Positions 2,492 to 40,855 of a stretch of DNA of 64,000 nucleotides are shown here, in pieces. Positions within the stretch are counted from its first letter, which is position 1. Every line of letters starts with the position of its first letter. Source of the DNA: Octopus vulgaris (taxonomy: Eukaryota); the NCBI GenBank assembly GCA_951406725.2, contig OX597827.1, positions 53,382,001 through 53,446,000 on the forward strand, written 5' to 3'. Below the pieces are notes generated by a model. That model was not told where the DNA came from. It ran no database searches and worked only from the letters and a program-made list of their open reading frames with translations. A program made the translations under genes and the position numbers.

Positions 2492-3530
2492 TCTAAAATT
2501 TAGGGGAAAATTTTCAAAAAATTTTTCAAAAATTATTGGGGAAAATTTTCAAAAAATATTTCAAGATATTTTGGGGAAAATTTCCAAAAAATTTTCAAAA
2601 AACTTGTCAGAAATTTTGGTGAAAATTTCTAAAAAATTTTTCAAAAATTTTGAGGAAAATTTTTGGGGAAAATTTTCAAAAAATTTTTCAAAAATTTAGG
2701 GGAAAATTTTCGAAAAATTTTTCAAAATTTTGGGGAAAATTGTCCAAAAACTTTTCGGAAAAGTTTTCAATAAATTTCCCAAAAAATTTTTCAAAAATTT
2801 AGGGGAAACGTTTCGAAAAATTTTTCAAAAACTTTTGGGGAAATTTTCAAAAATTTTGGGGAAAATTTTCAAAAATCTTTGGGAAAAATATTCAAAAATT
2901 TTTGGGGAAAACTTTCAACAATATTTGGAAAAAATTTTCAAAAATTGTGGGGGAAAATTAAAAAAAAATTTTGGGGAAAGTTTCCGGCAATCTCCGGCAA
3001 TGTCCGGCATTTTCCGGCATTGAAAAATTAAAAAAAACTTTTGAAAATTATCCCCAAATATTTTTGGAAATTTGACACGAAAATTATTGAAAATTTACGC
3101 CGAAAATTTTTGAAAATTATTCCGAAAATAGTTTTGAAAATTTTCACCTACATTATTGGGAAATCTCCCAAAATGCTATTCCGCCTATCTCCGACAATCT
3201 CCGGCAATTTCCAGCAATTTAGGGCAATCTCCGGCAATTTTGGGGGAAGATTTTCAAAAATTTTTGGGAAAAGTTTTCAAAAATTTTTTGGGAAAAATAT
3301 TCAGAAGTTTTTGGGAAAAAATTTCAAAAATATTTGGCGAAAATTCTCAAAATTTTTTAGGGAATATTTCCCAAAAATTTTCAAAAAATTTTTCAAAAAT
3401 TTTAGGGGAGAATATTCAAAAATTTTTGAGGAAAATTTTCAAAAAATTTTTCAAAAATTTTCGGGGAAAATTTTCAAAAAGTTTTTCAAAATTTTTGGGG
3501 AAAACTTTCAAAAATTTGTGAGGAAAATTA
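2492..3530. repeat. Degenerate minisatellite/low-complexity array of TTTTCAAAAATTTT(T)GGGGAAAA-type units
   Basis: About 1 kb of repeated TTTTCAAAAA / AAAATTTT / GGGGAAAA modules, interrupted by a few CCGGCAAT units. Its ORFs are K/F/I-rich artefacts. Confidence 0.9.
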
Positions 3531-15539: not shown

Positions 15540-17090
15540 TATTTTCGGTTTACTTTAGGATTTAGAATTCTTATAAAGTATTCTTCTTTTGCCTTTCGTA
15601 GTTGATCAGTTTCGTTGTTTATTCTGTAAAATGGGAATATCTTTAATTTTCTATTTGCACAAATATCTAGATGTTCACTGCATGAGACATTCCTAAGGGG
15701 GAGTCCTTAATTTGTTATTTATACATATTTATATGACTGGTCAGTTTCCTTCCTGTCTCCTCAAAGTAAATTTCATTGCATTGTGGGCATTTGATGCAGT
15801 AGATGAGGGTTTTTTGTTTTGCAATTCATGTTTGCATTCATTTAATTCCTTCCCATTCTTGAACCTTTTGGTTGTTCCTTGCTCAATTAATTCACATGTT
15901 CCACAACGGGGGTCTTCACAGTTGGTTACTTGCATCATTTCTCTTTCAAATGTGAATCTCGCCTCTGTAAGAAGTCTCTTGAGGTTTGGTGGCTATCTTC
16001 GACTGTTGATAATTTGTGATTTTTTAATTACGTGTTGGAGATTTGGTAATTGATGTAGAATCAGGAGGTATTATTTGGCTGAGTGTAGGATGTTGCGTTT
16101 TCTAGGACTGTGGGTAACCACAAATGGAATATCAGTATTTTTGTTTTCACACCTGAGTGTTTCTTCGTAAGGTAGAGATCAAGATTTTCTTTGCTTTTGT
16201 TATGACATGTTGAATTAGCTTGTTGGGGTATTTTGTTTCCGAAGGAATGTATTAATGGTATCTGTGACTATTGAGCATATGCGCTTCGCCATATTAAACG
16301 GTAAGTTCCTTTTTGTATGGGAAGGGTGGTAAGATCTAAAATCTAAATATTGGTGCGTACCTGTATTCTTGTAGTAGAGATCAGTCGTAACTGCCCCATT
16401 TTCTTTAATTATCAGAATATCTAGAAAGAGGAGTTCCTTTTCATTTATTTCCATAGTGAATTGGACTGAGATATGAATGCTATTTATTAATTTAAGAAAT
16501 TTTGTGAAGCCCTCCTTACTTGGGTTCCAAAATATGAAGCAGTCATCTCAGAATCTTTTCCAGTTTCTTATATGATAGGTTTGAAAGTGGTGTTCAAAAG
16601 CAGTTCTGGACAGGGTGTATATTGTTTCTTCTATGTATTCTATTACTAGTATGGCAAAACTTGGTGCGACTTTCGTTCCCATTGTTGTGCCTTGTATTTG
16701 TAGACAAAATTGATTATCAAAGTAGAAGTAGTTGTTTTCCAGTACTATCCGTAAACCTTCAAGTATGAATTCTTTTGAGAATCTCTCCAGATTTCTTTGT
16801 GGGTGTTTGCTTATCCAGAATTCTACTACTTTTAGCTCGTATACATGAGGGGTATTTGTGTAGAGACTAGTTACGTCAAAGGAAATTAGTCCTATCTCTT
16901 TATCTACCCATTCTGTGATATAGTTTAAGAAGTTCATGTCATCTCCGATGAAACTAGGAACCAATCTGCATAAAGGTTTTAAAATTATGTCGAGTAAATT
17001 GCTTTATCTTTGGGTGCTGGATGATGGTCCTGCAACAATCGGATGCAACTTGAGATTAGTTAATTTAGGAATCTCTATATATGGAGCCTA
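15540..17090 (-). pseudogene. Decayed Penelope-like RT, related to the element at 32031-37999
   Basis: LISFDVTSLYTN, QGTTMGTKVAPSFA, NWKRF*DDCF, LLFLDILI, TDLYYKNT and a Cys-rich CEDPRCGTC parallel ORF 34681-36747, with stops and frameshifts. Confidence 0.9.
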
Positions 17091-17737
17091 TATTGTATTG
17101 CACACGCATTAGCCCAATCTGACCGAATGTTAAAGTCATCTTCTTTGTAATTATGCACTCTTGGTTTAGGTCGCATTGCGTCACGTCTTGATGAAATGAT
17201 CCATGCTGTGCAAATTACACTCGGTAGACAGAAACTGCGCAGGAAGGTACATACTCTGTGATACTGATTTTGACTGTGGAATGTCTGTGGAATTACCTTA
17301 CATTCAGGAGAAGGTGATTCAGTTTATCAAGCAACTTAATCCTTCTCGTCGAACGAGGAAAAAGCTACCACACACACGGGCACACGCACGCACGTACACA
17401 AGCATACATATAGACGCGCGCGCGCGCAGAATTATTTCAAACTTACGATCAAATGCTCGGAGTTGCGAACATGTTATGTATGATATGTATGATTTCGAGA
17501 TCAATCCCAACTAATATACGGAAACCGTGAGGAAGTACGTGTTAATCATGCATACGTATATTCGTACACATATACAGACACATATGTTTGCATGTCTAGG
17601 TGTATGTGTGCGTGCGTTCGCTTGTTTTTGTTTACGTAGAGAACACTGGAGTAAGCTTTACTGGGTTCGATTTGTTCGACGAAAGCAATCAAGAGTGTGC
17701 CTCTGCATGGCCGCAGTCCTTTGACTGAACAAGTAAA

Positions 17738-31750: not shown

Positions 31751-31921
31751 ATAAGAAAAAAACCACGGCTGAACACTTCCAAATAGCCATGACTGATGAA
31801 TATTTACACATTTTTTTTCTGTTTAAGAATGGTTGATGTTTATAAAAGTTTGATTTTGATAAATGCTAATGCACGAAACTCGACATTGGAGTCATTGTGT
31901 TACTTCTGCTATATATATATA

Positions 31922-32034
<113 letters not shown>

Positions 32035-32434
32035 CTTACGTAACAGGATGGCGGTGCATAAATCACAAATTAGAAACCCTGATTACCGCAAAATACCGGT
32101 CAGCGGACACATAGATAGATGTACTGGAAATGTAAATCCGAAATTTACAACTAACCCGCTCTATAAATTCAGTGACAACGCAACCTTCACACAACGCCAA
32201 AATAAAGAACTATATTTCATAAAAAAATTTAGACCAAGTTTAAACACCCTGGGCCAGGAATACTAAAACAAAAGATAAGTCCTCCGAAAAGGAGAACCAA
32301 ATTTCACCACGGCCGCTACTTCAAACAGACACTCACTCTGACGGAAATATGCCTTAGTAAAAAAGGGAAAAAAATTCTTTCGTGCAAATCTGACCCTGAT
32401 ACATACGATACAGCTAAGGGTCAGACCCGATTCT

Positions 32435-32830
32435 GATTGGTCAACAAGTTGATGACGTCTAGCTCTGCTAGAATGGACAGGATACAAACAGGGGACAGTC
32501 ATTAGTCAGAATATTGATGACGTCCTTTTCTGCTTGAATAGTCACCTAACAAGTACAGACAGGGGACAGATCTAATGTAGCTATAAGTCGTGATTGGGCA
32601 GAATCTGATTGACATCCCGCTATGCTTGACTAACGAAGCGACTGGTCAAGACAGGAAACAAACAAGAGGGAGTTATAATGCAGCGATTGGTCAAAATAAT
32701 GATGACGTCCCGTTCCACTTGATTAAAGCCACCTAACGAAACGATTGGTCAAAACATTGATGACGTCACGCTACGCTAGATTGACCACCTAACAGGCATT
32801 ATAAAACCAAGCATTTCACAAAAAATCACT
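32435..32830 (+). promoter_or_regulatory. Putative Pol II promoter: five ATTGG/CRE-like modules, TATA box and Inr
   Basis: (G)ATTGG...TGATGACGTC units at 32435, 32501, 32592, 32685 and 32743 (the second and third degenerate); perfect TGACGTCA 32761-32768; TATAAAA 32800-32806; TCACT at 32826-32830. Second copy at +4713. Confidence 0.65.
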
Positions 32831-33128
32831 AGAACCACCCAGCGAACTTCCACCATGGATCATCACAATTGCTTAAGGTAAAAATGAATTCCTCGCTCTT
32901 TCGGAAACATCAATCTTCTGTATTGACCGCTTTCCACCACTTTGATCTGTTTTTTGTATTGAATACGTATCGCCACCGTGGGCCACTGCATCGAACACTT
33001 TGAAATATACTTCAAACTATATATCAACTATACGTGAACTATATATCAACTATACATGAACTCTAAGATGTCTGACTCCGTTGTGTATTATAAATGAATT
33101 TCTTGTGTTTGACGGCATGAGCTGTCTC

Positions 33129-33199
33129 TTTTTATATATAACTTTTTTTGATAAGGTTCATTTCAGGAACTGAAACATGTTATAATGTATATATAAAAA
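33129..33199 (+). ncRNA. Minimal type I hammerhead ribozyme, U3:A8 variant (5' pLTR)
   Basis: Core TTGATAA (33148-33154); stem II GGTTC-ATTTCAG-GAACT; GAAA; palindromic ACATGT stem III; GUU triplet; distal stem I TTTTTATATATA/TATATATAAAAA. Confidence 0.65.
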
Positions 33200-33313
33200 T
33201 TAAAAATTGTATAATACAGCAGCATTTTCGAACTTCATTTTTTACAAATATATACCTACTCGTATACGAGCTAATCCTATTATAAATATCATATCACGTA
33301 CGAGCTCCCGAAA

Positions 33314-34714
33314 ATGCCTGCTAAAAAAGACACCAACGACATCTCCTCAATAAATGAAGAGATACTGAAAGAATTGAAAAGCATAAATTCAAACCTAACA
33401 GCAGTGTTAAACAAACTCAACTTAACACCTCGACCTTCTACACAAACTAACGAGGAAACCGAATCGAATAAAACACCCTCCGAAATATTCGAGAAAGTTG
33501 AAAATCTATGCGATACAATGACGACATTCTTCACAAACTTTACGAAACAAGAGCAACAAAAAGAAGGAACACATGAGAAGAACCGAGCAACTTCAACATT
33601 ACAAATAAAGAACCAAGTCCTCCCCCAATGGAGAACACTACAGCGAAACAGAAAATTCGCTTTTTGGAAAATGATACAAAATCAGAATAAAGCAGAGATT
33701 TACCAAAAATGGCTAGACTCAACACCCCTAGTCATACCCCGTAAATTACAAATCAAACCCATCTCGGAAGAACCAGAAGAACAAAGAAAACTTAGAGAAA
33801 AAATGTCATTAGAAAAAATGAAGATGGAAATAGAACTACTTAAGCTGAGAGCTAAAACGAATGAAGAAAAAGTAAAAACCATAGACGAGGAAATCAACGA
33901 AGAAGTCATCAAACTAATAGACGACAACAATACTGAAACATTAACAGCACTATGGAATGAAGAATGTGAAAAAGAGGAACTTAAGTCCCTCCAACGATGG
34001 GAAAAGAGCGCCATCTGGTTTCTAGATTATGAAACCAACTTAAAAAATGAACACATATCCAACAACCCCTTCATAAAATTAAGCAAATCAAAACCAAATA
34101 CCAATAGAACGGAACAACCACCAAGAAATCCTACCACACTCTACACCAGAAAAGTACACCTAAAACACACCCCACACTACCTACACCAACCCCAAAACAC
34201 CTACAGAGGCCCACCACACCAGTTCGAAAATAGACATACCAACAGAGCAGAACAACCACCAAGAAATCCAAACACACTCTACACCAGAAAAATGCATTTA
34301 AAACGCACCCCACACTACCTACACCAACCCCAAAACACTTATAGGGTCCCACCACACCATTCCACGAACCTAAGAGCCACAACATACAATACTATAAAAT
34401 ACAACCCACATAACCAAACCAAAACGCTACTACCAAACATCCACCCCAGGAACCAACCATACAACCATAACAAACAACAAATGCACTACGGAGGAAACAA
34501 CTACCAACACAATACACCTGAGGAACTAAGACGTAACACTAGGTTCAACAACAGACTCCAGAACAGAGCACCACAAACTCACTCTGACAATTATAACAAC
34601 ATGAGACAGATAAATAATAGCTTTGAACATAACTACACCAACCATTTTTTAGACCCCACACACAGGAACAGGGACACACGATGGCAAAGGACAAACAAAA
34701 GAAACCTCAGGTAA
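33314..34714 (+). CDS. PLE ORF1, 466 aa: coiled-coil-like N half, N/Q/H/P/T-rich low-complexity C half
   Basis: Long uninterrupted ORF starting right after the pLTR; E/K-rich helical stretch; duplicated 46-aa unit. Confidence 0.8.
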   Translation: MPAKKDTNDISSINEEILKELKSINSNLTAVLNKLNLTPRPSTQTNEETESNKTPSEIFEKVENLCDTMTTFFTNFTKQEQQKEGTHEKNRATSTLQIKNQVLPQWRTLQRNRKFAFWKMIQNQNKAEIYQKWLDSTPLVIPRKLQIKPISEEPEEQRKLREKMSLEKMKMEIELLKLRAKTNEEKVKTIDEEINEEVIKLIDDNNTETLTALWNEECEKEELKSLQRWEKSAIWFLDYETNLKNEHISNNPFIKLSKSKPNTNRTEQPPRNPTTLYTRKVHLKHTPHYLHQPQNTYRGPPHQFENRHTNRAEQPPRNPNTLYTRKMHLKRTPHYLHQPQNTYRVPPHHSTNLRATTYNTIKYNPHNQTKTLLPNIHPRNQPYNHNKQQMHYGGNNYQHNTPEELRRNTRFNNRLQNRAPQTHSDNYNNMRQINNSFEHNYTNHFLDPTHRNRDTRWQRTNKRNLR

Positions 34715-36747
34715 TTAAGATAATCAATCTCTCAAACAAAGAACTTACACCTAACGAAATAAGCATACTCTCCAAAGGACTTAAATTTACACCCACCCCA
34801 CAACGTTCTAATTATTATGAAATGAAAGATGATATTTCGGAATTTTGCAGAAAACTAAGACTCACCGAGGCATTTCAAGACAAACAAATAGAGGAGGACT
34901 CAATAGCTAGAAACAAGAGCAATTACACCCCCACCAAAGGTAAGAATAAAGCCTTAGACCGCTATTGTGACTACATAACTAATTTCCCGTTTCAATTCAT
35001 CAAGAAACAAAAACACAGCCCTAACTTCAACAAAAGAGAATGGAACGACCTCATCAAACTAAGAGAAGACAAAACAATAACAATTAAGGAGGCAGATAAG
35101 GGCAACGCGATAGTAATAATGAATACAAACAATTATAAAAATTTAGTGCTATCCCTATTAAGAGATGAAACGTATTATGAAAGGGCCCAACAGTATAACC
35201 AGCAAAAAATAATGCATAACCTTAGGACATTAATCAACACATACCAAGAAGGACTCACGAACAAGGAGTATGAATACATCACTAACTTCAAATGCAAATC
35301 GAGTTTGTTCTATGGTATCCCTAAGGTACACAAAAGCCAAACCATTAGAGAAACGTGCAAAACATCCACCGACACACTCATCAAAATCCCTTCACCAAAT
35401 GATCTTAAACTAAGACCGATAATAGCAGGGCCAGCATGTGAAACTCACCGCCTCAGCAATTTCTTAGACACACTTCTTAAACCTTTCCTAAAACACATCA
35501 AAAGCTACGTAAGAGACGATATAGATATGCTCAACCACCTCCCCAAAACAGTCAATGAGAAAACCCTTCTAGTATCATTCGACGTAGTTAATCTTTATTC
35601 TAACATCCCTCACAACCTAGGAATAGAAGCAATCACCTTCTGGCTGAATAACTACCCCTTTGAACTCCCAACTCGCATAAACAAAGACCTTATAATAGAA
35701 GGACTTAGATTCATTTTAGAGAACAATTATTTTATTTTTGACAATGATTTCTACAGGCAAAGATCGGGAACAGCGATGGGCACGCGTACTGCACCATCTT
35801 TTGCCAACCTAGTGATGGGATACCTCGAGAAAATACTATACCGGATGACACTCGAGAAATATGGCAACACCTTCGCCACCTATATCCATAACAACTGGAA
35901 AAGATACCTCGATGACTGTTTCATCATCTGGGACAAAGGCATAGAGAAACTTGAGGAATTTAAAATTCTATTAAATGGAATAAATGACAATATACAATTC
36001 ACGATGGACCACAACGAAAAAGAATTACCATTTTTAGACATCCTCATTAAGATAACCGGCAACAAAATAGAGACAGATATCTACTATAAACCGACAGACT
36101 CTAAACAGTACCTACCCTTTGATTCATGCCACCCACGACACACTAGAATGAATGTCCCTTTTTGTTTAGCTAGAAGGATTTGCACCATAATATCAGACAC
36201 AAACACCCGACACACACGTCTCCAGGAACTTAGAACCACACTCACAAATAGAAACTATCCACAGCCCCTAATAGACAGTGCAATCCAACGGGTACTTAAA
36301 TTAAGTATAGAAGACCTGAGACAAACAAAACCAAAAAAGAAAGAACAATTAAAAACCCTTCCCTACATCTCTACACACAACCCACTCAACAATGAGGCCT
36401 TCAACACCATACTACAAAGCACAGCCCTACTAAAGGGAGACCCAAAGATGAACCGGATCCTCGAAACACACACCATCATTAAAAGTAAACGGCAACCAAA
36501 ATCCTTGAAAAGGATTTTAACCCAAGCTACACTGCACTCAACATCAACCACAAAACCAGCAGTTAGAAAATGTGGAAGGCCCAACTGCGGAATCTGTGTC
36601 ATCTTGAAAGAAGGATCAGAATTTATACTGGAACAAGGCCACCAGTTCACCATTAGAACAAACTTCACCTGCGCATCAGAAAACTTAATTTACGTCATAA
36701 CATGCGCAGGCTGCAATAGGCAGTATATAGGCCATACAAAAAAATAG
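34681..36747 (+). CDS. PLE reverse transcriptase plus N-terminal half of the GIY-YIG endonuclease, 688 aa
   Basis: ILSKGLKFTPTP, ADKGNAIV, YGIPKVHK, LRPIIAG, SFDVVNLYSNI, GTAMG, RYLDD, LPFLDI, Cys motif CGRPNCGIC, then LIYVITCAGCNRQYIGHT. Confidence 0.95.
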   Translation: MAKDKQKKPQVIKIINLSNKELTPNEISILSKGLKFTPTPQRSNYYEMKDDISEFCRKLRLTEAFQDKQIEEDSIARNKSNYTPTKGKNKALDRYCDYITNFPFQFIKKQKHSPNFNKREWNDLIKLREDKTITIKEADKGNAIVIMNTNNYKNLVLSLLRDETYYERAQQYNQQKIMHNLRTLINTYQEGLTNKEYEYITNFKCKSSLFYGIPKVHKSQTIRETCKTSTDTLIKIPSPNDLKLRPIIAGPACETHRLSNFLDTLLKPFLKHIKSYVRDDIDMLNHLPKTVNEKTLLVSFDVVNLYSNIPHNLGIEAITFWLNNYPFELPTRINKDLIIEGLRFILENNYFIFDNDFYRQRSGTAMGTRTAPSFANLVMGYLEKILYRMTLEKYGNTFATYIHNNWKRYLDDCFIIWDKGIEKLEEFKILLNGINDNIQFTMDHNEKELPFLDILIKITGNKIETDIYYKPTDSKQYLPFDSCHPRHTRMNVPFCLARRICTIISDTNTRHTRLQELRTTLTNRNYPQPLIDSAIQRVLKLSIEDLRQTKPKKKEQLKTLPYISTHNPLNNEAFNTILQSTALLKGDPKMNRILETHTIIKSKRQPKSLKRILTQATLHSTSTTKPAVRKCGRPNCGICVILKEGSEFILEQGHQFTIRTNFTCASENLIYVITCAGCNRQYIGHTKK

Positions 36748-36979
36748 CTTACGTAACAGGATGGCGGTGCATAAATCACAAATTAGAAACCCTGATTACC
36801 GCAAAATACCGGTCAGCGGACACATAGATAGATGTACTGGAAATGTAAATCCGAAATTTACAACTAACCCGCTCTATAAATTCAGTGACAACGCAACCTT
36901 CACACAACGCCAAAATAAAGAACTATATTTCATAAAAAAATTTAGACCAAGTTTAAACACCCTGGGCCAGGAATACTAA
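36746..36979 (+). CDS. C-terminal half of the GIY-YIG endonuclease (shifted frame after an A7 run)
   Basis: Removing one A from the run at 36738-36744 gives [16 protein letters not shown]...SGH...[13 protein letters not shown], completing the GIY-YIG domain (R, H, H, E, N). Confidence 0.8.
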   Translation, partial: SLRNRMAVHKSQIRNPDYRKIPVSGHIDRCTGNVNPKFTTNPLYKFSDNATFTQRQNKELYFIKKFRPSLNTLGQEY

Positions 36980-37841
36980 AACAAAAGATAAGTCCTCCGA
37001 AAAGGAGAACCAAATTTCACCACGGCCGCTACTTCAAACAGACACTCACTCTGACGGAAATATGCCTTAGTAAAAAAGGGAAAAAAATTCTTTCGTGCAA
37101 ATCTGACCCTGATACATACGATACAGCTAAGGGTCAGACCCGATTCTGATTGGTCAACAAGTTGATGACGTCTAGCTCTGCTAGAATGGACAGGATACAA
37201 ACAGGGGACAGTCATTAGTCAGAATATTGATGACGTCCTTTTCTGCTTGAATAGTCACCTAACAAGTACAGACAGGGGACAGATCTAATGTAGCTATAAG
37301 TCGTGATTGGGCAGAATCTGATTGACATCCCGCTATGCTTGACTAACGAAGCGACTGGTCAAGACAGGAAACAAACAAGAGGGAGTTATAATGCAGCGAT
37401 TGGTCAAAATAATGATGACGTCCCGTTCCACTTGATTAAAGCCACCTAACGAAACGATTGGTCAAAACATTGATGACGTCACGCTACGCTAGATTGACCA
37501 CCTAACAGGCATTATAAAACCAAGCATTTCACAAAAAATCACTAGAACCACCCAGCGAACTTCCACCATGGATCATCACAATTGCTTAAGGTAAAAATGA
37601 ATTCCTCGCTCTTTCGGAAACATCAATCTTCTGTATTGACCGCTTTCCACCACTTTGATCTGTTTTTTGTATTGAATACGTATCGCCACCGTGGGCCACT
37701 GCATCGAACACTTTGAAATATACTTCAAACTATATATCAACTATACGTGAACTATATATCAACTATACATGAACTCTAAGATGTCTGACTCCGTTGTGTA
37801 TTATAAATGAATTTCTTGTGTTTGACGGCATGAGCTGTCTC

Positions 37842-37912
37842 TTTTTATATATAACTTTTTTTGATAAGGTTCATTTCAGGAACTGAAACATGTTATAATG
37901 TATATATAAAAA
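37842..37912 (+). ncRNA. Minimal type I hammerhead ribozyme, U3:A8 variant (3' pLTR)
   Basis: Copy of 33129-33199. Confidence 0.65.
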
Positions 37913-37996
37913 TTAAAAATTGTATAATACAGCAGCATTTTCGAACTTCATTTTTTACAAATATATACCTACTCGTATACGAGCTAATCCTATTAT

Positions 37997-38043
<47 letters not shown>

Positions 38044-38050
38044 GTATATA

Positions 38051-38099
<49 letters not shown>

Positions 38100-38106
38100 G
38101 TATATG

Positions 38107-38251
<145 letters not shown>

Positions 38252-38372
38252 GCATATATATGTGTGTGTGTGATATATGTGTGTGTGTGTGTGTGTGTAC
38301 ATATTTGTATGTTTTGCTTTATGTATATATTCTCATGCATACAGTTGCATGTCTAGACATGCTCATATATAT

Positions 38373-39300
38373 TTAAATGATAAACTTCTGGAAAGTTTCA
38401 CAGATTTGTAAAGTTCCAGTAATAGACTGGATCTGTGGTCTTCGAATTAGCTTTCTCCTTTCTGGTTTTGAGAAGCTTAATTTCTCAAGATTAGTATTTA
38501 CACAGTGTGTTACATATCCCAGGGCCCCAATAATTACAGGTATAAACCCGAACTTGTAATATGGATAGAGTAACTGCAGGTTTCTCAATAGTTCAGTATA
38601 GGTGTTCTCCTTTTCACTGATCTTCAGCTAATTTACACAACTGTGCACAGTTTCTCTTCTCAATTGTGATTACATTTTATTGCGGTCTTCATTGGTACAT
38701 TCCACCAGTATCCCTCTTTATTATGAGTGGCTATAACTTCTACTATATTGTGGGTTCTTATTTCTTTGTCCTTGGGATTATCCTTCCGACGGATTTCATT
38801 ATAGAGTGTCCTAGCTACAACATCATATTTCATCGGTAGATAATACTGTGATGAGAATTTGGGACAACTGCTTATGATGTGGGTAATATCTTCAGTGTGA
38901 ACTCCACAAAGTCTGCATCGGTTGTCACATTTTATGGCCTTTACTGCATCTCTATCCCTTTTGTGCATCAGGTATTTGGTTGATACTCCCTGTTCCTGGA
39001 TTGCAAATGCATACCCTTCAAAGTGGGAGATAATAATATGGCTATTGGTCCACGGTAAACTGCTTTGATGATCGATGTCACTATGTGGAAATTATGTGTG
39101 CTTGTTAGCACTTTTCGGGTTTTCACATCAATGGCTCGGATCTCTTCAAGCATCTAAAAGAGCAACCCAAATATTGGTATGAGTACTGGCATTGGAAACG
39201 CATTATCGGTCACTGTTTTACTGAATGCAGAGAGTTCTGAGGTCCAAATTTTCTTTATTCGGCTGTAATTTTCTTTAGTGACATGTTTTGTTACAGGTGC
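38373..39300 (-). mobile_element. R4/Dong-like LINE remnant
   Basis: CRLCGVHTEDITHIISSC...MKYD, FIPVIIGALG. Confidence 0.75.
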
Positions 39301-39485: not shown

Positions 39486-39774
39486 GCTATCTAGCTATCT
39501 ATCTAGCTAGCTATCTAGCTATCTATCTATCTAGCTATCTAGCTATCTAGCTATCTAGCTATCTATCTAGCTATCTATCTATTGAAATTTAAACTACACC
39601 AACAGGGTATTTTCCATGTATGTGTGTATATATGTATATGTGTATATGTGAGTTTATGTATGTGCGTGTGTTGTGTGTGTGTGAGTGTGTTGGGTGTGTG
39701 CTGATTTGTATGTTTTGTTTCATCTATGTATTTTCATACATGCATTTGCATGTCTTGACAAGCACATATAATAC

Positions 39775-40855
39775 TTAAATGATAAATTTCTGGAAAGTTT
39801 TACTGATCTTTGCAGTTCCAGTGATTGCTTGAATCTGCAGTTTTCGAATCAGCTTTCTCCTTTCTGGTTTTGAGAAGCCTGATTTCTCAAGGTTTCGTAC
39901 TTAGGCAGTGTGTTACATATCTCAGTACCCCAATAATTACAGGTATAACATTTAACTTGTAATCTGGATAGAGTAACTGTAGATTTCTCAATAGTACAGC
40001 GTAGGTGTTTACTTTCTCGCTGATCTTCGGCTTTATATTAACATCCGCTAGATAGCTGACTTCCACAACTGCACACAGTTTCTCTTCTCTGTCTCACTAT
40101 GTCAGTTCTATTATGTTTAGATTTTATTGAGGTTTTCACTGGGATATTCCACCAGTACTCCTTATTATGAGTGCAATGATTCCTACAATATAGTGGGTTC
40201 TTTTTCTTTAGCCTCAGGGTTATCCTTCCGACGGATCTCATTATACAGTGTCTTAGCTACATCATCATGTCTCATCAGCAGATAATACCGTGATAACATT
40301 TTCAGACAACTGCTTATAATGAGGATGATGTCTTCCGTGTTAACTCCACAAAGCCTGCATTGGTTATCACATTTTGGTGTTTTCCTTGCTTCTCTGTCCC
40401 GTTTTTGTATCAAGTATTTTGTTTGTATTTACTGTTCCTGGATTGCAAACGCTACCCTTCAAAGTGAGAGTTAGTAATCCGGTTTTGGTTCATGATAAAC
40501 TGCTTTGGTTATCAATGTTACTATCATATGAGCTTTCTCATAACATATTCAAGCATAATCTTCTGCTGATACACGCTCATCCTTTCACCTAATGATACGT
40601 TGCGCTGGAATCGTGTATCTTCTTTGGGCATGTATTCAAGGTTATCATACAAGGAATGCTGCTGAAGGAGCTGCTTTCCAAGTCTCATGGTGTTATCTGC
40701 CTCGTATATGCAAAATTTGATCAAGGAATGTACTTCGACACTTGGTAGTTAAGAGATGTTGCAGAAGGGATATGATTCGACATCCAAAAGCTGTTTGGAA
40801 CGATCGTAAGCTTCTGCCCACTTGTTTTTGTTTTAAGTGGAGGTGGTCTACATCG
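39775..40855 (-). mobile_element. R4/Dong-like LINE remnant (second copy)
   Basis: CRLCGVNTEDIILIISSC...MRHD; parallels 38373-39300. Confidence 0.75.

What the first reader, a model, noticed from the sequence alone, without database searches (positions are those of the whole stretch)
33129..33199. U3:A8-variant minimal hammerhead in each pseudo-LTR, predicting a 4713-nt unit-length RNA
The core reads TTGATAA instead of CTGANGA, a compensatory change of the known 3:8 tertiary pair that a strict motif search would miss. Stem II is GGTTC/GAACT. Stem III is the palindrome ACATGT, typical of PLE minimal hammerheads proposed to act as dimers. The two copies (33129 and 37842) could pair with each other. 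Cleavage after 33181 and 37894 would release exactly one unit containing both ORFs. The proximal part of stem I is weak (U-U mismatches).
Basis: partly seen in the sequence, partly recalled or inferred. Interest (0 to 1): 0.7.

Follow-up and report, generated by a model that had tools for sequence, protein, structure and literature searches.

The report
Weakened hammerhead ribozyme in Penelope retrotransposon
Both end repeats of a young jumping gene carry a known, published variant of a likely self-cutting RNA (a hammerhead ribozyme); this subfamily's version is predicted to cut weakly, and the genomic copies were likely made from RNA that was uncut or rejoined at that spot.

Summary
Confirmed: a type I minimal hammerhead with a U3-A8 core sits identically in both pseudo-LTRs (33129, 37842; period 4713) of a young Penelope-like element with a C-terminal GIY-YIG endonuclease. 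It is not chance. U3-A8 motifs number 10,400 in this genome (control 556), positions 3 and 8 co-vary, and stems I-III show compensatory changes across ten families or subfamilies. It is not new: U3-A8 minimal hammerheads in Penelope-like elements were published in 2014 (PMC4209133). This subfamily's copy is the weakest seen: G·U at 10.1-11.1, U17, and one base pair of stem I before a U·U mismatch. Older subfamilies have G-C, A17 and 3-4 pairs. The 4713-nt arithmetic is right, but a linear unit cannot be the usual insertion template. 0 of 26 3' ends fall at the cut (they lie about 73 or 108 nt beyond it). 17 of 21 and 28 of 30 5' ends, in two families, run through it. The two repeats of each insertion share their variants. 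The template was therefore continuous across the site: re-ligated (circular) or uncut. Cleavage is untested. The scan's earlier notes returned other hammerheads in this genome, none of this kind.

The parts
32033..33286 (+). 5' pseudo-LTR (5'-truncated upstream unit; begins inside the GIY-YIG coding region)
   Evidence: identical to 36746-37999; encodes EN residues 689-765
33129..33199 (+). type I minimal hammerhead, U3-A8 core (copy 1)
33148..33154 (+). core U3 U4 G5 A6 U7 A8 A9
   Evidence: present in 27 of 27 family loci that hold the motif region, of 30 fetched
33155..33171 (+). helix II, 5 bp with a G10.1·U11.1 wobble and a 7-nt loop
   Evidence: older subfamilies have G-C
33172..33181 (+). 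GAA, palindromic helix III ACATGT, H17 = U; predicted cut after 33181
   Evidence: palindrome co-varies across families
33254..33289 (+). optional 35-nt 'tail': the two positions at which genomic copies end, 73 and 108 nt beyond the cut (inferred RT start sites)
   Evidence: loose ends at 33254 and 33289 in public contigs
32435..32783 (+). five repeats with CCAAT- and CRE-like boxes (likely upstream promoter; motif names recalled)
   Evidence: family D7
32800..32806 (+). TATA-like box (start site not mapped)
   Evidence: sequence
32875..32883 (+). likely splice donor AAG|GTAAAA after 32877
   Evidence: contigs of runs X1 and X11 leave the element at 32877 into two different sequences
33314..34714 (+). 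ORF1, 466 aa, no significant Pfam family
34645..34651 (+). U UUU UUA heptamer, candidate -1 frameshift from ORF1 into ORF2
   Evidence: conserved in the sister family, which has no ATG near the ORF2 start
34681..36979 (+). ORF2: RT, CX4CX2C linker, GIY-YIG endonuclease. Frameshifted in this copy at the A run 36738-36744 (stop at 36745-36747); 765 aa in an intact copy
36746..37999 (+). 3' pseudo-LTR
37842..37912 (+). hammerhead copy 2; predicted cut after 37894
31911..32032 (.). (TA)n target, left flank
38000..38250 (.). (TA)n target, right flank

Best explanation
This is the standard minimal hammerhead motif of a Penelope-like retrotransposon, in the published U3-A8 form, and in this young subfamily it is likely a slow cutter that would need a partner copy and probably the element's protein. 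Shown: the motif, its covariation across families, its three weakening changes relative to older subfamilies, and the fact that inserted copies cross the cut site at both ends and carry matching variants in both repeats. Inferred: two copies pair through ACAUGU and cut after U33181 and U37894 only occasionally. Inferred: the 4713-nt product matters only if its ends are rejoined into a circle. Reverse transcription would then start internally 73 or 108 nt beyond the junction and run round more than once, giving a partial tandem with identical repeats of variable length (1.27 units here) and restoring the upstream promoter. Odds: identity as a PLE hammerhead about 0.95; this copy cleaves measurably about 0.5; circle route about 0.4.
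For: Enrichment 2,239 vs 74. 3/8 coupling with one pattern: U-A 10,400, C-G 1,599, mixed 1,802, odds ratio at least 20. 89 of the first 100 listed U3-A8 hits have a palindromic helix III, with all four possible centres (counted by hand; 25 expected). Ten family representatives: 94.6% of cells paired, 10 of 13 pairs with two-sided changes, covariation 0.76 vs 0.25 shuffled and at most 0.22 slid. A sister PLE (64% aa) has U3-A8 at the same place, with different stems and palindrome. 0 of 26 3' ends at the cut. 5' ends run through the motif in 17 of 21 and 28 of 30. 228 variants shared vs 62 unshared between the two repeats of 15 insertions. 12 of 21 copies begin upstream of the TATA-like box, although none of 40 ORF1 hits of this family lies in a full tandem dimer. 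Low activity, dimer dependence and the circle model are in PMC4209133; protein assistance and internal RT starts are in PMC11167929.
Against: No cleavage or circular RNA was observed. Predicted folding disfavours the active form. The most recent, near-identical subfamily has the worst ribozyme, which fits decay as well as tuning. PMC11167929 found HHR mutants did not affect insertion in vitro and saw no RNA-seq ends at the site. A homologous template jump explains the same footprints with no cutting. The sister family does have full tandem arrays, so read-through templates are possible there. Copy counts are not independent events; the ten aligned rows were chosen by me from core-pattern hits with visible stem II, which inflates stem II pairing. 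One family appears to carry U3·G8 (4 listed hits).
Confidence: 0.55

Rival explanations
1. The ribozyme is vestigial in this subfamily. Insertion uses uncut RNA, and the partial tandem is rebuilt by a homologous template jump (or from read-through RNA) without cutting.
For: Three weakening changes accumulate from old to young subfamilies while the family keeps spreading. Copies cross the site intact. Public contigs span the motif uncut (may be DNA). PMC11167929: cleavage not needed in vitro.
Against: The core, the 3:8 pair, five helix II pairs and the palindrome are all kept in the young subfamily, and a 10-12 bp distal stem I is present. A simple jump would not by itself make the region downstream of the start site match in both repeats (inference).
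Confidence: 0.3
2. One reading: both ribozymes cut and the linear 4713-nt RNA is the working species, as insertion template or as an R2-like mRNA whose 5' end lies 132 nt before ORF1.
For: The arithmetic holds. 3 of 21 young copies have a 5' junction within 8 nt of the cut (binomial P 0.003 if uniform); two of them (L286, L287) are compatible with an RNA that starts at 33182.
Against: No 3' end at the cut (0 of 26). 0 of 30 such 5' junctions in the sister family, which has the better ribozyme. The three junctions lie in a TA-rich stretch that resembles the target; one of them (L288) includes at least 7 nt upstream of the cut; the window was chosen after seeing the data. The element has its own promoter-like region and splice donor.
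Confidence: 0.1
3. The letters are a polypyrimidine tract with an AG splice acceptor (T-run then GATAAG|G, or TTTCAG|G in loop II) that only mimics a hammerhead.
For: A likely donor lies upstream at 32877, and both AG sites fit an acceptor consensus (recalled). In D. virilis the intron end maps to helix I (PMC4209133).
Against: Compensatory changes in helices I, II, III and at 3:8 across families are not explained by splicing. No spliced joint into the motif in 4 runs. No intronless genomic copy joined to it (2 hits, neither from the element). The two roles could coexist.
Confidence: 0.05

Closest known systems
U3-A8 min-HHR of Cercyon PLEs in Schistosoma mansoni (Cervera and De la Pena 2014, PMC4209133; parts 1-2 of 4 read, supplements not seen)
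   Same: type I minimal hammerhead in both pLTRs, U3-A8 core, palindromic positions 15-16, short helix I, proposed dimer action and circle model
   Different: helix II 5 bp (7-8 there); no unpaired base between 9 and 10.1; G·U at 10.1-11.1 and U17; unit 4.7 kb with two ORFs; U3-A8 outnumbers C3-G8 here by about 6.5 to 1 by pattern (about 1,300 vs 2,000 there)
HHR of PAc, Poseidon from Anolis (Frangieh et al. 2024, PMC11167929; main text read)
   Same: HHR in the pLTR; copies end at two sites 30-40 nt apart downstream of it; AT-rich targets; template crosses the HHR
   Different: PAc has C3-G8 and an HHR overlapping the start of a single ORF; here the HHR is in the 5' UTR, 132 nt before ORF1
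Neptune/Nematis-type EN+ PLEs (Craig et al. 2021, PMC8557442; passages read, figures not seen)
   Same: RT, CX2-5CxxC linker, C-terminal GIY-YIG; partial tandems, tail, (TA)n targets, HHR
   Different: separate ORF1 linked by a slippery heptamer with no predicted downstream structure; the Fig. 1 legend allows an ORF1 with frameshift and pseudoknot, but I could not see for which clade
Natural U3-A8 hammerheads (Perreault et al. 2011, PMC3088659; section 8 and passages read)
   Same: same covarying core pair, stated there to be active in vitro
   Different: those come from a survey across all domains of life; no PLE context appeared in the passages read

Membership tests
PLE minimal type I hammerhead | core boxes with a 3:8 pair, G12-A13-A14, A15.1-U16.1, H17 | tested here: met
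   U3-A8, U17; 3:8 coupling
PLE minimal type I hammerhead | helix II closed next to the core | tested here: met
   5 bp, but G·U instead of the usual G10.1-C11.1, which older subfamilies have
PLE minimal type I hammerhead | palindromic minimal helix III | tested here: met
   ACATGT here; centre co-varies in other families
PLE minimal type I hammerhead | helix I adjoining the cleavage site | tested here: inconclusive
   1 bp then U·U in this copy, with a 10-12 bp distal stem; 3-7 proximal bp in older subfamilies and most other families
PLE minimal type I hammerhead | one copy in each pLTR of a PLE | tested here: met
PLE minimal type I hammerhead | self-cleavage (as dimer or protein-assisted) | not testable with these tools
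   contigs cannot show RNA ends
EN+ PLE, Neptune/Nematis type | RT with C-terminal GIY-YIG endonuclease | tested here: met
   RVT_1 E 9e-7, just under its curated cut-off; many homologues carry PF00078 and PF01541; motif visible in an intact copy
EN+ PLE, Neptune/Nematis type | CX2-5CxxC linker before the endonuclease | tested here: met
   CX4CX2C in ORF2
EN+ PLE, Neptune/Nematis type | partial tandem pLTRs, 30-40 nt tail, (TA)n targets | tested here: met
EN+ PLE, Neptune/Nematis type | RT phylogeny that separates Neptune from Nematis | not tested
   no named reference sequences were fetched

The most novel reading that the evidence does not exclude
This genome holds a natural allelic series of one PLE hammerhead, from well-formed (old) to attenuated (youngest subfamily). 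The insertion footprints (internal 3' starts, both ends crossing the cut, repeats homogenised every cycle, promoter regenerated with no full dimers) record ribozyme cutting and re-ligation into a 4713-nt circular RNA that is the true template. That would answer how pseudo-LTRs are regenerated, with slow cutting selected rather than lost.
Probability: 0.3. Interest if true: 0.65.

Novelty: new member of a known kind. Interest (0 to 1): 0.28.

Why it matters
The variant itself is ordinary. [quoted passage not shown] A young family with intact copies, mapped 3' ends and a graded set of strong and weak natural ribozymes allows a direct test of the circle model against template jumping. It also shows that C3-G8-only searches would miss most hammerheads of this pattern in this genome.

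Tried and rejected
Rfam scan: no hammerhead family matched. Runs search: no holder on record as RNA; four runs, contigs only and guessed RNA, gave no joint into the motif and cannot show ends. No second set of runs was laid, so the splice acceptor is unmapped. Intronless genomic copies: none. An alternative register with H17 = A33182 was rejected because C15.2 would face U. An apparent 3' end at the cut in L280 was the edge of the fetched region. Enrichment of 5' junctions at the cut: seen in one family, absent in the other, treated as inconclusive. The forced-pair stem I energy did not hold its constraint for the young copy and was not used. The bacterial promoter scan was uninformative. The atlas look-up of ORF1 did not complete. 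Not held, so unread: Lunse et al. 2017 (title seen in a reference list only), Arkhipova et al. 2017, Nelson and Uhlenbeck 2008, and one recalled paper on 3:8 exchanges. That GUU, G·U at 10.1-11.1 and U3-A8 each slow cleavage is recalled, not read here. Searches for a slippery-site frameshift in EN+ PLEs found only the Craig 2021 legend; supplements and unheld papers may describe it.

Full report
Observation. The motif is present as described: U3-U4-G5-A6-U7-A8-A9 at 33148-33154, helix II 33155-33159 with 33167-33171, GAA, the palindrome ACATGT and U17 at 33181. The second copy lies 4713 nt downstream, inside a repeat with no mismatch over 32031-33286. Rfam does not detect it.

Context. The repeats are pseudo-LTRs of a Penelope-like element inserted in (TA)n. 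[quoted passage not shown] I built no tree. ORF2 of this copy is frameshifted in an A run: 7 A here, 6 A in 44 of 45 matches in fetched loci, duplicates included. The family is young, with many copies 99-100% identical. The host is an unnamed 2.8-Gb genome (G000).

Is it more than chance? Yes. A core-plus-palindrome pattern occurs 2,239 times against 74 for its control. With one wider pattern, U3-A8 occurs 10,400 times (control 556), C3-G8 1,599 (228), and all four combinations 13,801 (1,371). The mixed forms therefore total 1,802, and the odds ratio for coupling is at least 20. These are copy counts, not independent events, and one family seems to carry U3·G8 (4 listed hits). Of the first 100 U3-A8 hits listed, 89 have a palindromic helix III (hand count). 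A sister PLE family at 64% amino-acid identity carries U3-A8 at the same position with another N7, helix II, palindrome, A17 and helix I. A third U3-A8 family lies beside RT/EN sequence at 46-57% identity. Across ten representatives that I chose from core-pattern hits, 10 of 13 pairs show two-sided changes, and the covariation score is 0.76 against 0.25 shuffled and at most 0.22 slid. The choice of rows favours helix II; helix I was not selected for.

This copy is the weak one. Older subfamilies (about 84-91% aa identity) have G10.1-C11.1, mostly A17, and mostly 3-4 proximal pairs in helix I. An intermediate one has U17 with G-C and 4-6 pairs. The window's subfamily has G·U, U17 and a single pair before a U·U mismatch. 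In a monomer fold the 1.1-2.1 pair has probability 0.002 and helix II about 0.14. PMC4209133 and PMC3088659 both.1-11.1 highly conserved. That each change slows cleavage is recalled knowledge.

What the insertions record. Of 34 distinct places with the young motif, 8 continue into ORF1 and 26 end; none ends at the cut. Fourteen end at 33243-33254 and 12 at 33284-33289, that is up to 73 or 108 nt beyond it. Eleven of the latter were selected by score; the 12 taken in genome order all end at 33243-33254. The sister family ends near +65 and +99. This matches the two internal RT starts and the tail shown for PAc (PMC11167929, main text read). For 5' ends I used 21 of 30 loci, dropping 3 too divergent to place and 6 truncated inside ORF1: 17 run upstream through the motif, 3 lie within 8 nt of the cut, and 1 lies downstream. 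The three are nominally enriched (P 0.003), but they sit in a TA-rich stretch, one overshoots the cut, and the sister family shows 0 of 30, with 28 running through. Within 15 of 20 fetched insertions with more than 100 nt of overlap, the two repeats share 228 differences from the window's sequence and differ at 62, some being alignment noise. Twelve of the 21 copies start upstream of the TATA-like box, yet none of 40 ORF1 hits (58 candidates) is part of a full tandem, whereas the sister family has such arrays.

Mechanism. The template must have been continuous across the cut site, and both repeats were probably copied from one template segment. A linear 4713-nt product fails this test; a re-ligated circle, as proposed in PMC4209133, passes it, and so, less neatly, does an uncut RNA with a template jump. 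I favour occasional, dimer- and protein-assisted cutting with circularisation (about 0.4 for the circle, 0.5 that this copy cuts), with a vestigial ribozyme as the main rival. No cleavage, circle or RNA end was observed. Four public contig sets, only guessed to be RNA, span the motif uncut, and two of them leave the element at the likely donor 32877.

Novelty. U3-A8 in PLE minimal hammerheads is stated outright in PMC4209133, as are the dimer model, low activity and the circle idea. Natural U3-A8 cores are in PMC3088659. Also seen: PMC6765202, PMC3884650 and PMC3846280 (passages), PMC2377424 (abstract and discussion), and bioRxiv 10.64898/2026.07.22.740005 (part 1 of 5). Supplements were not read and may list this family. 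Earlier scan notes for this genome concern permuted Naiad hammerheads and 359-nt retrozymes; a word search for this kind returned none.

Verdict. A real, correctly read motif and a new member of a known kind; interest 0.28. The remaining value lies in the graded natural series and the insertion footprints, which make the circle model testable.

Noticed in passing
window 34630-34714; L091, L094: ORF1 and ORF2 overlap in the -1 frame. A U UUU UUA heptamer lies just after the stop that opens the ORF2 frame and is conserved in the 64%-identical sister family, where the first ATG is about 67 codons downstream. No stimulatory structure is predicted. Candidate programmed frameshift in an endonuclease-bearing PLE.
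   Followed up: partly
window 32875-32883: Likely splice donor; contigs from two studies leave here into different sequences, suggesting that solo pLTRs drive spliced chimeric host transcripts. The hammerhead would lie in the intron or at its 3' boundary.
   Followed up: partly
L211-L214 (G000:C1:8134352-8135463) and L231-L237: Tandem repeats of about 360 bp, one family with a well-formed U3-A8 hammerhead and one with C3-G8; no RT hit within 1.5 kb in the loci tested; retrozyme-like.
   Followed up: partly
G000:C1:11159842, 11616207, 15995887: A repeated hammerhead family with an apparent U3·G8 wobble (three near-identical hits, and a fourth U3·G8 hit of other sequence).
   Followed up: no
L192, L194, L196, L201, L205, L216: An abundant U3-A8 PLE family with a helix II of only 2 bp and, in most copies, a 7-bp helix I.
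   Followed up: partly
window 15873-17105 (-): A second, divergent PLE RT fragment, 39% identical to ORF2; no clear hammerhead nearby.
   Followed up: partly
window 38290-39084 and 39691-40524: A direct repeat of about 80% identity at 1.4 kb spacing; it includes a minus-strand ORF (38660-38968) with a Cys/His motif that recalls non-LTR restriction-like endonuclease elements (recalled, untested).
   Followed up: no
window about 2500-3500: Low-complexity array of T/A/C runs that produces many false core-like matches.
   Followed up: no
P0040, P0043, P0056 and others: Close ORF2 homologues are labelled as proteins of bacterial gill symbionts, probably host PLE contamination of metagenome bins, a problem noted in PMC8557442.
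   Followed up: no
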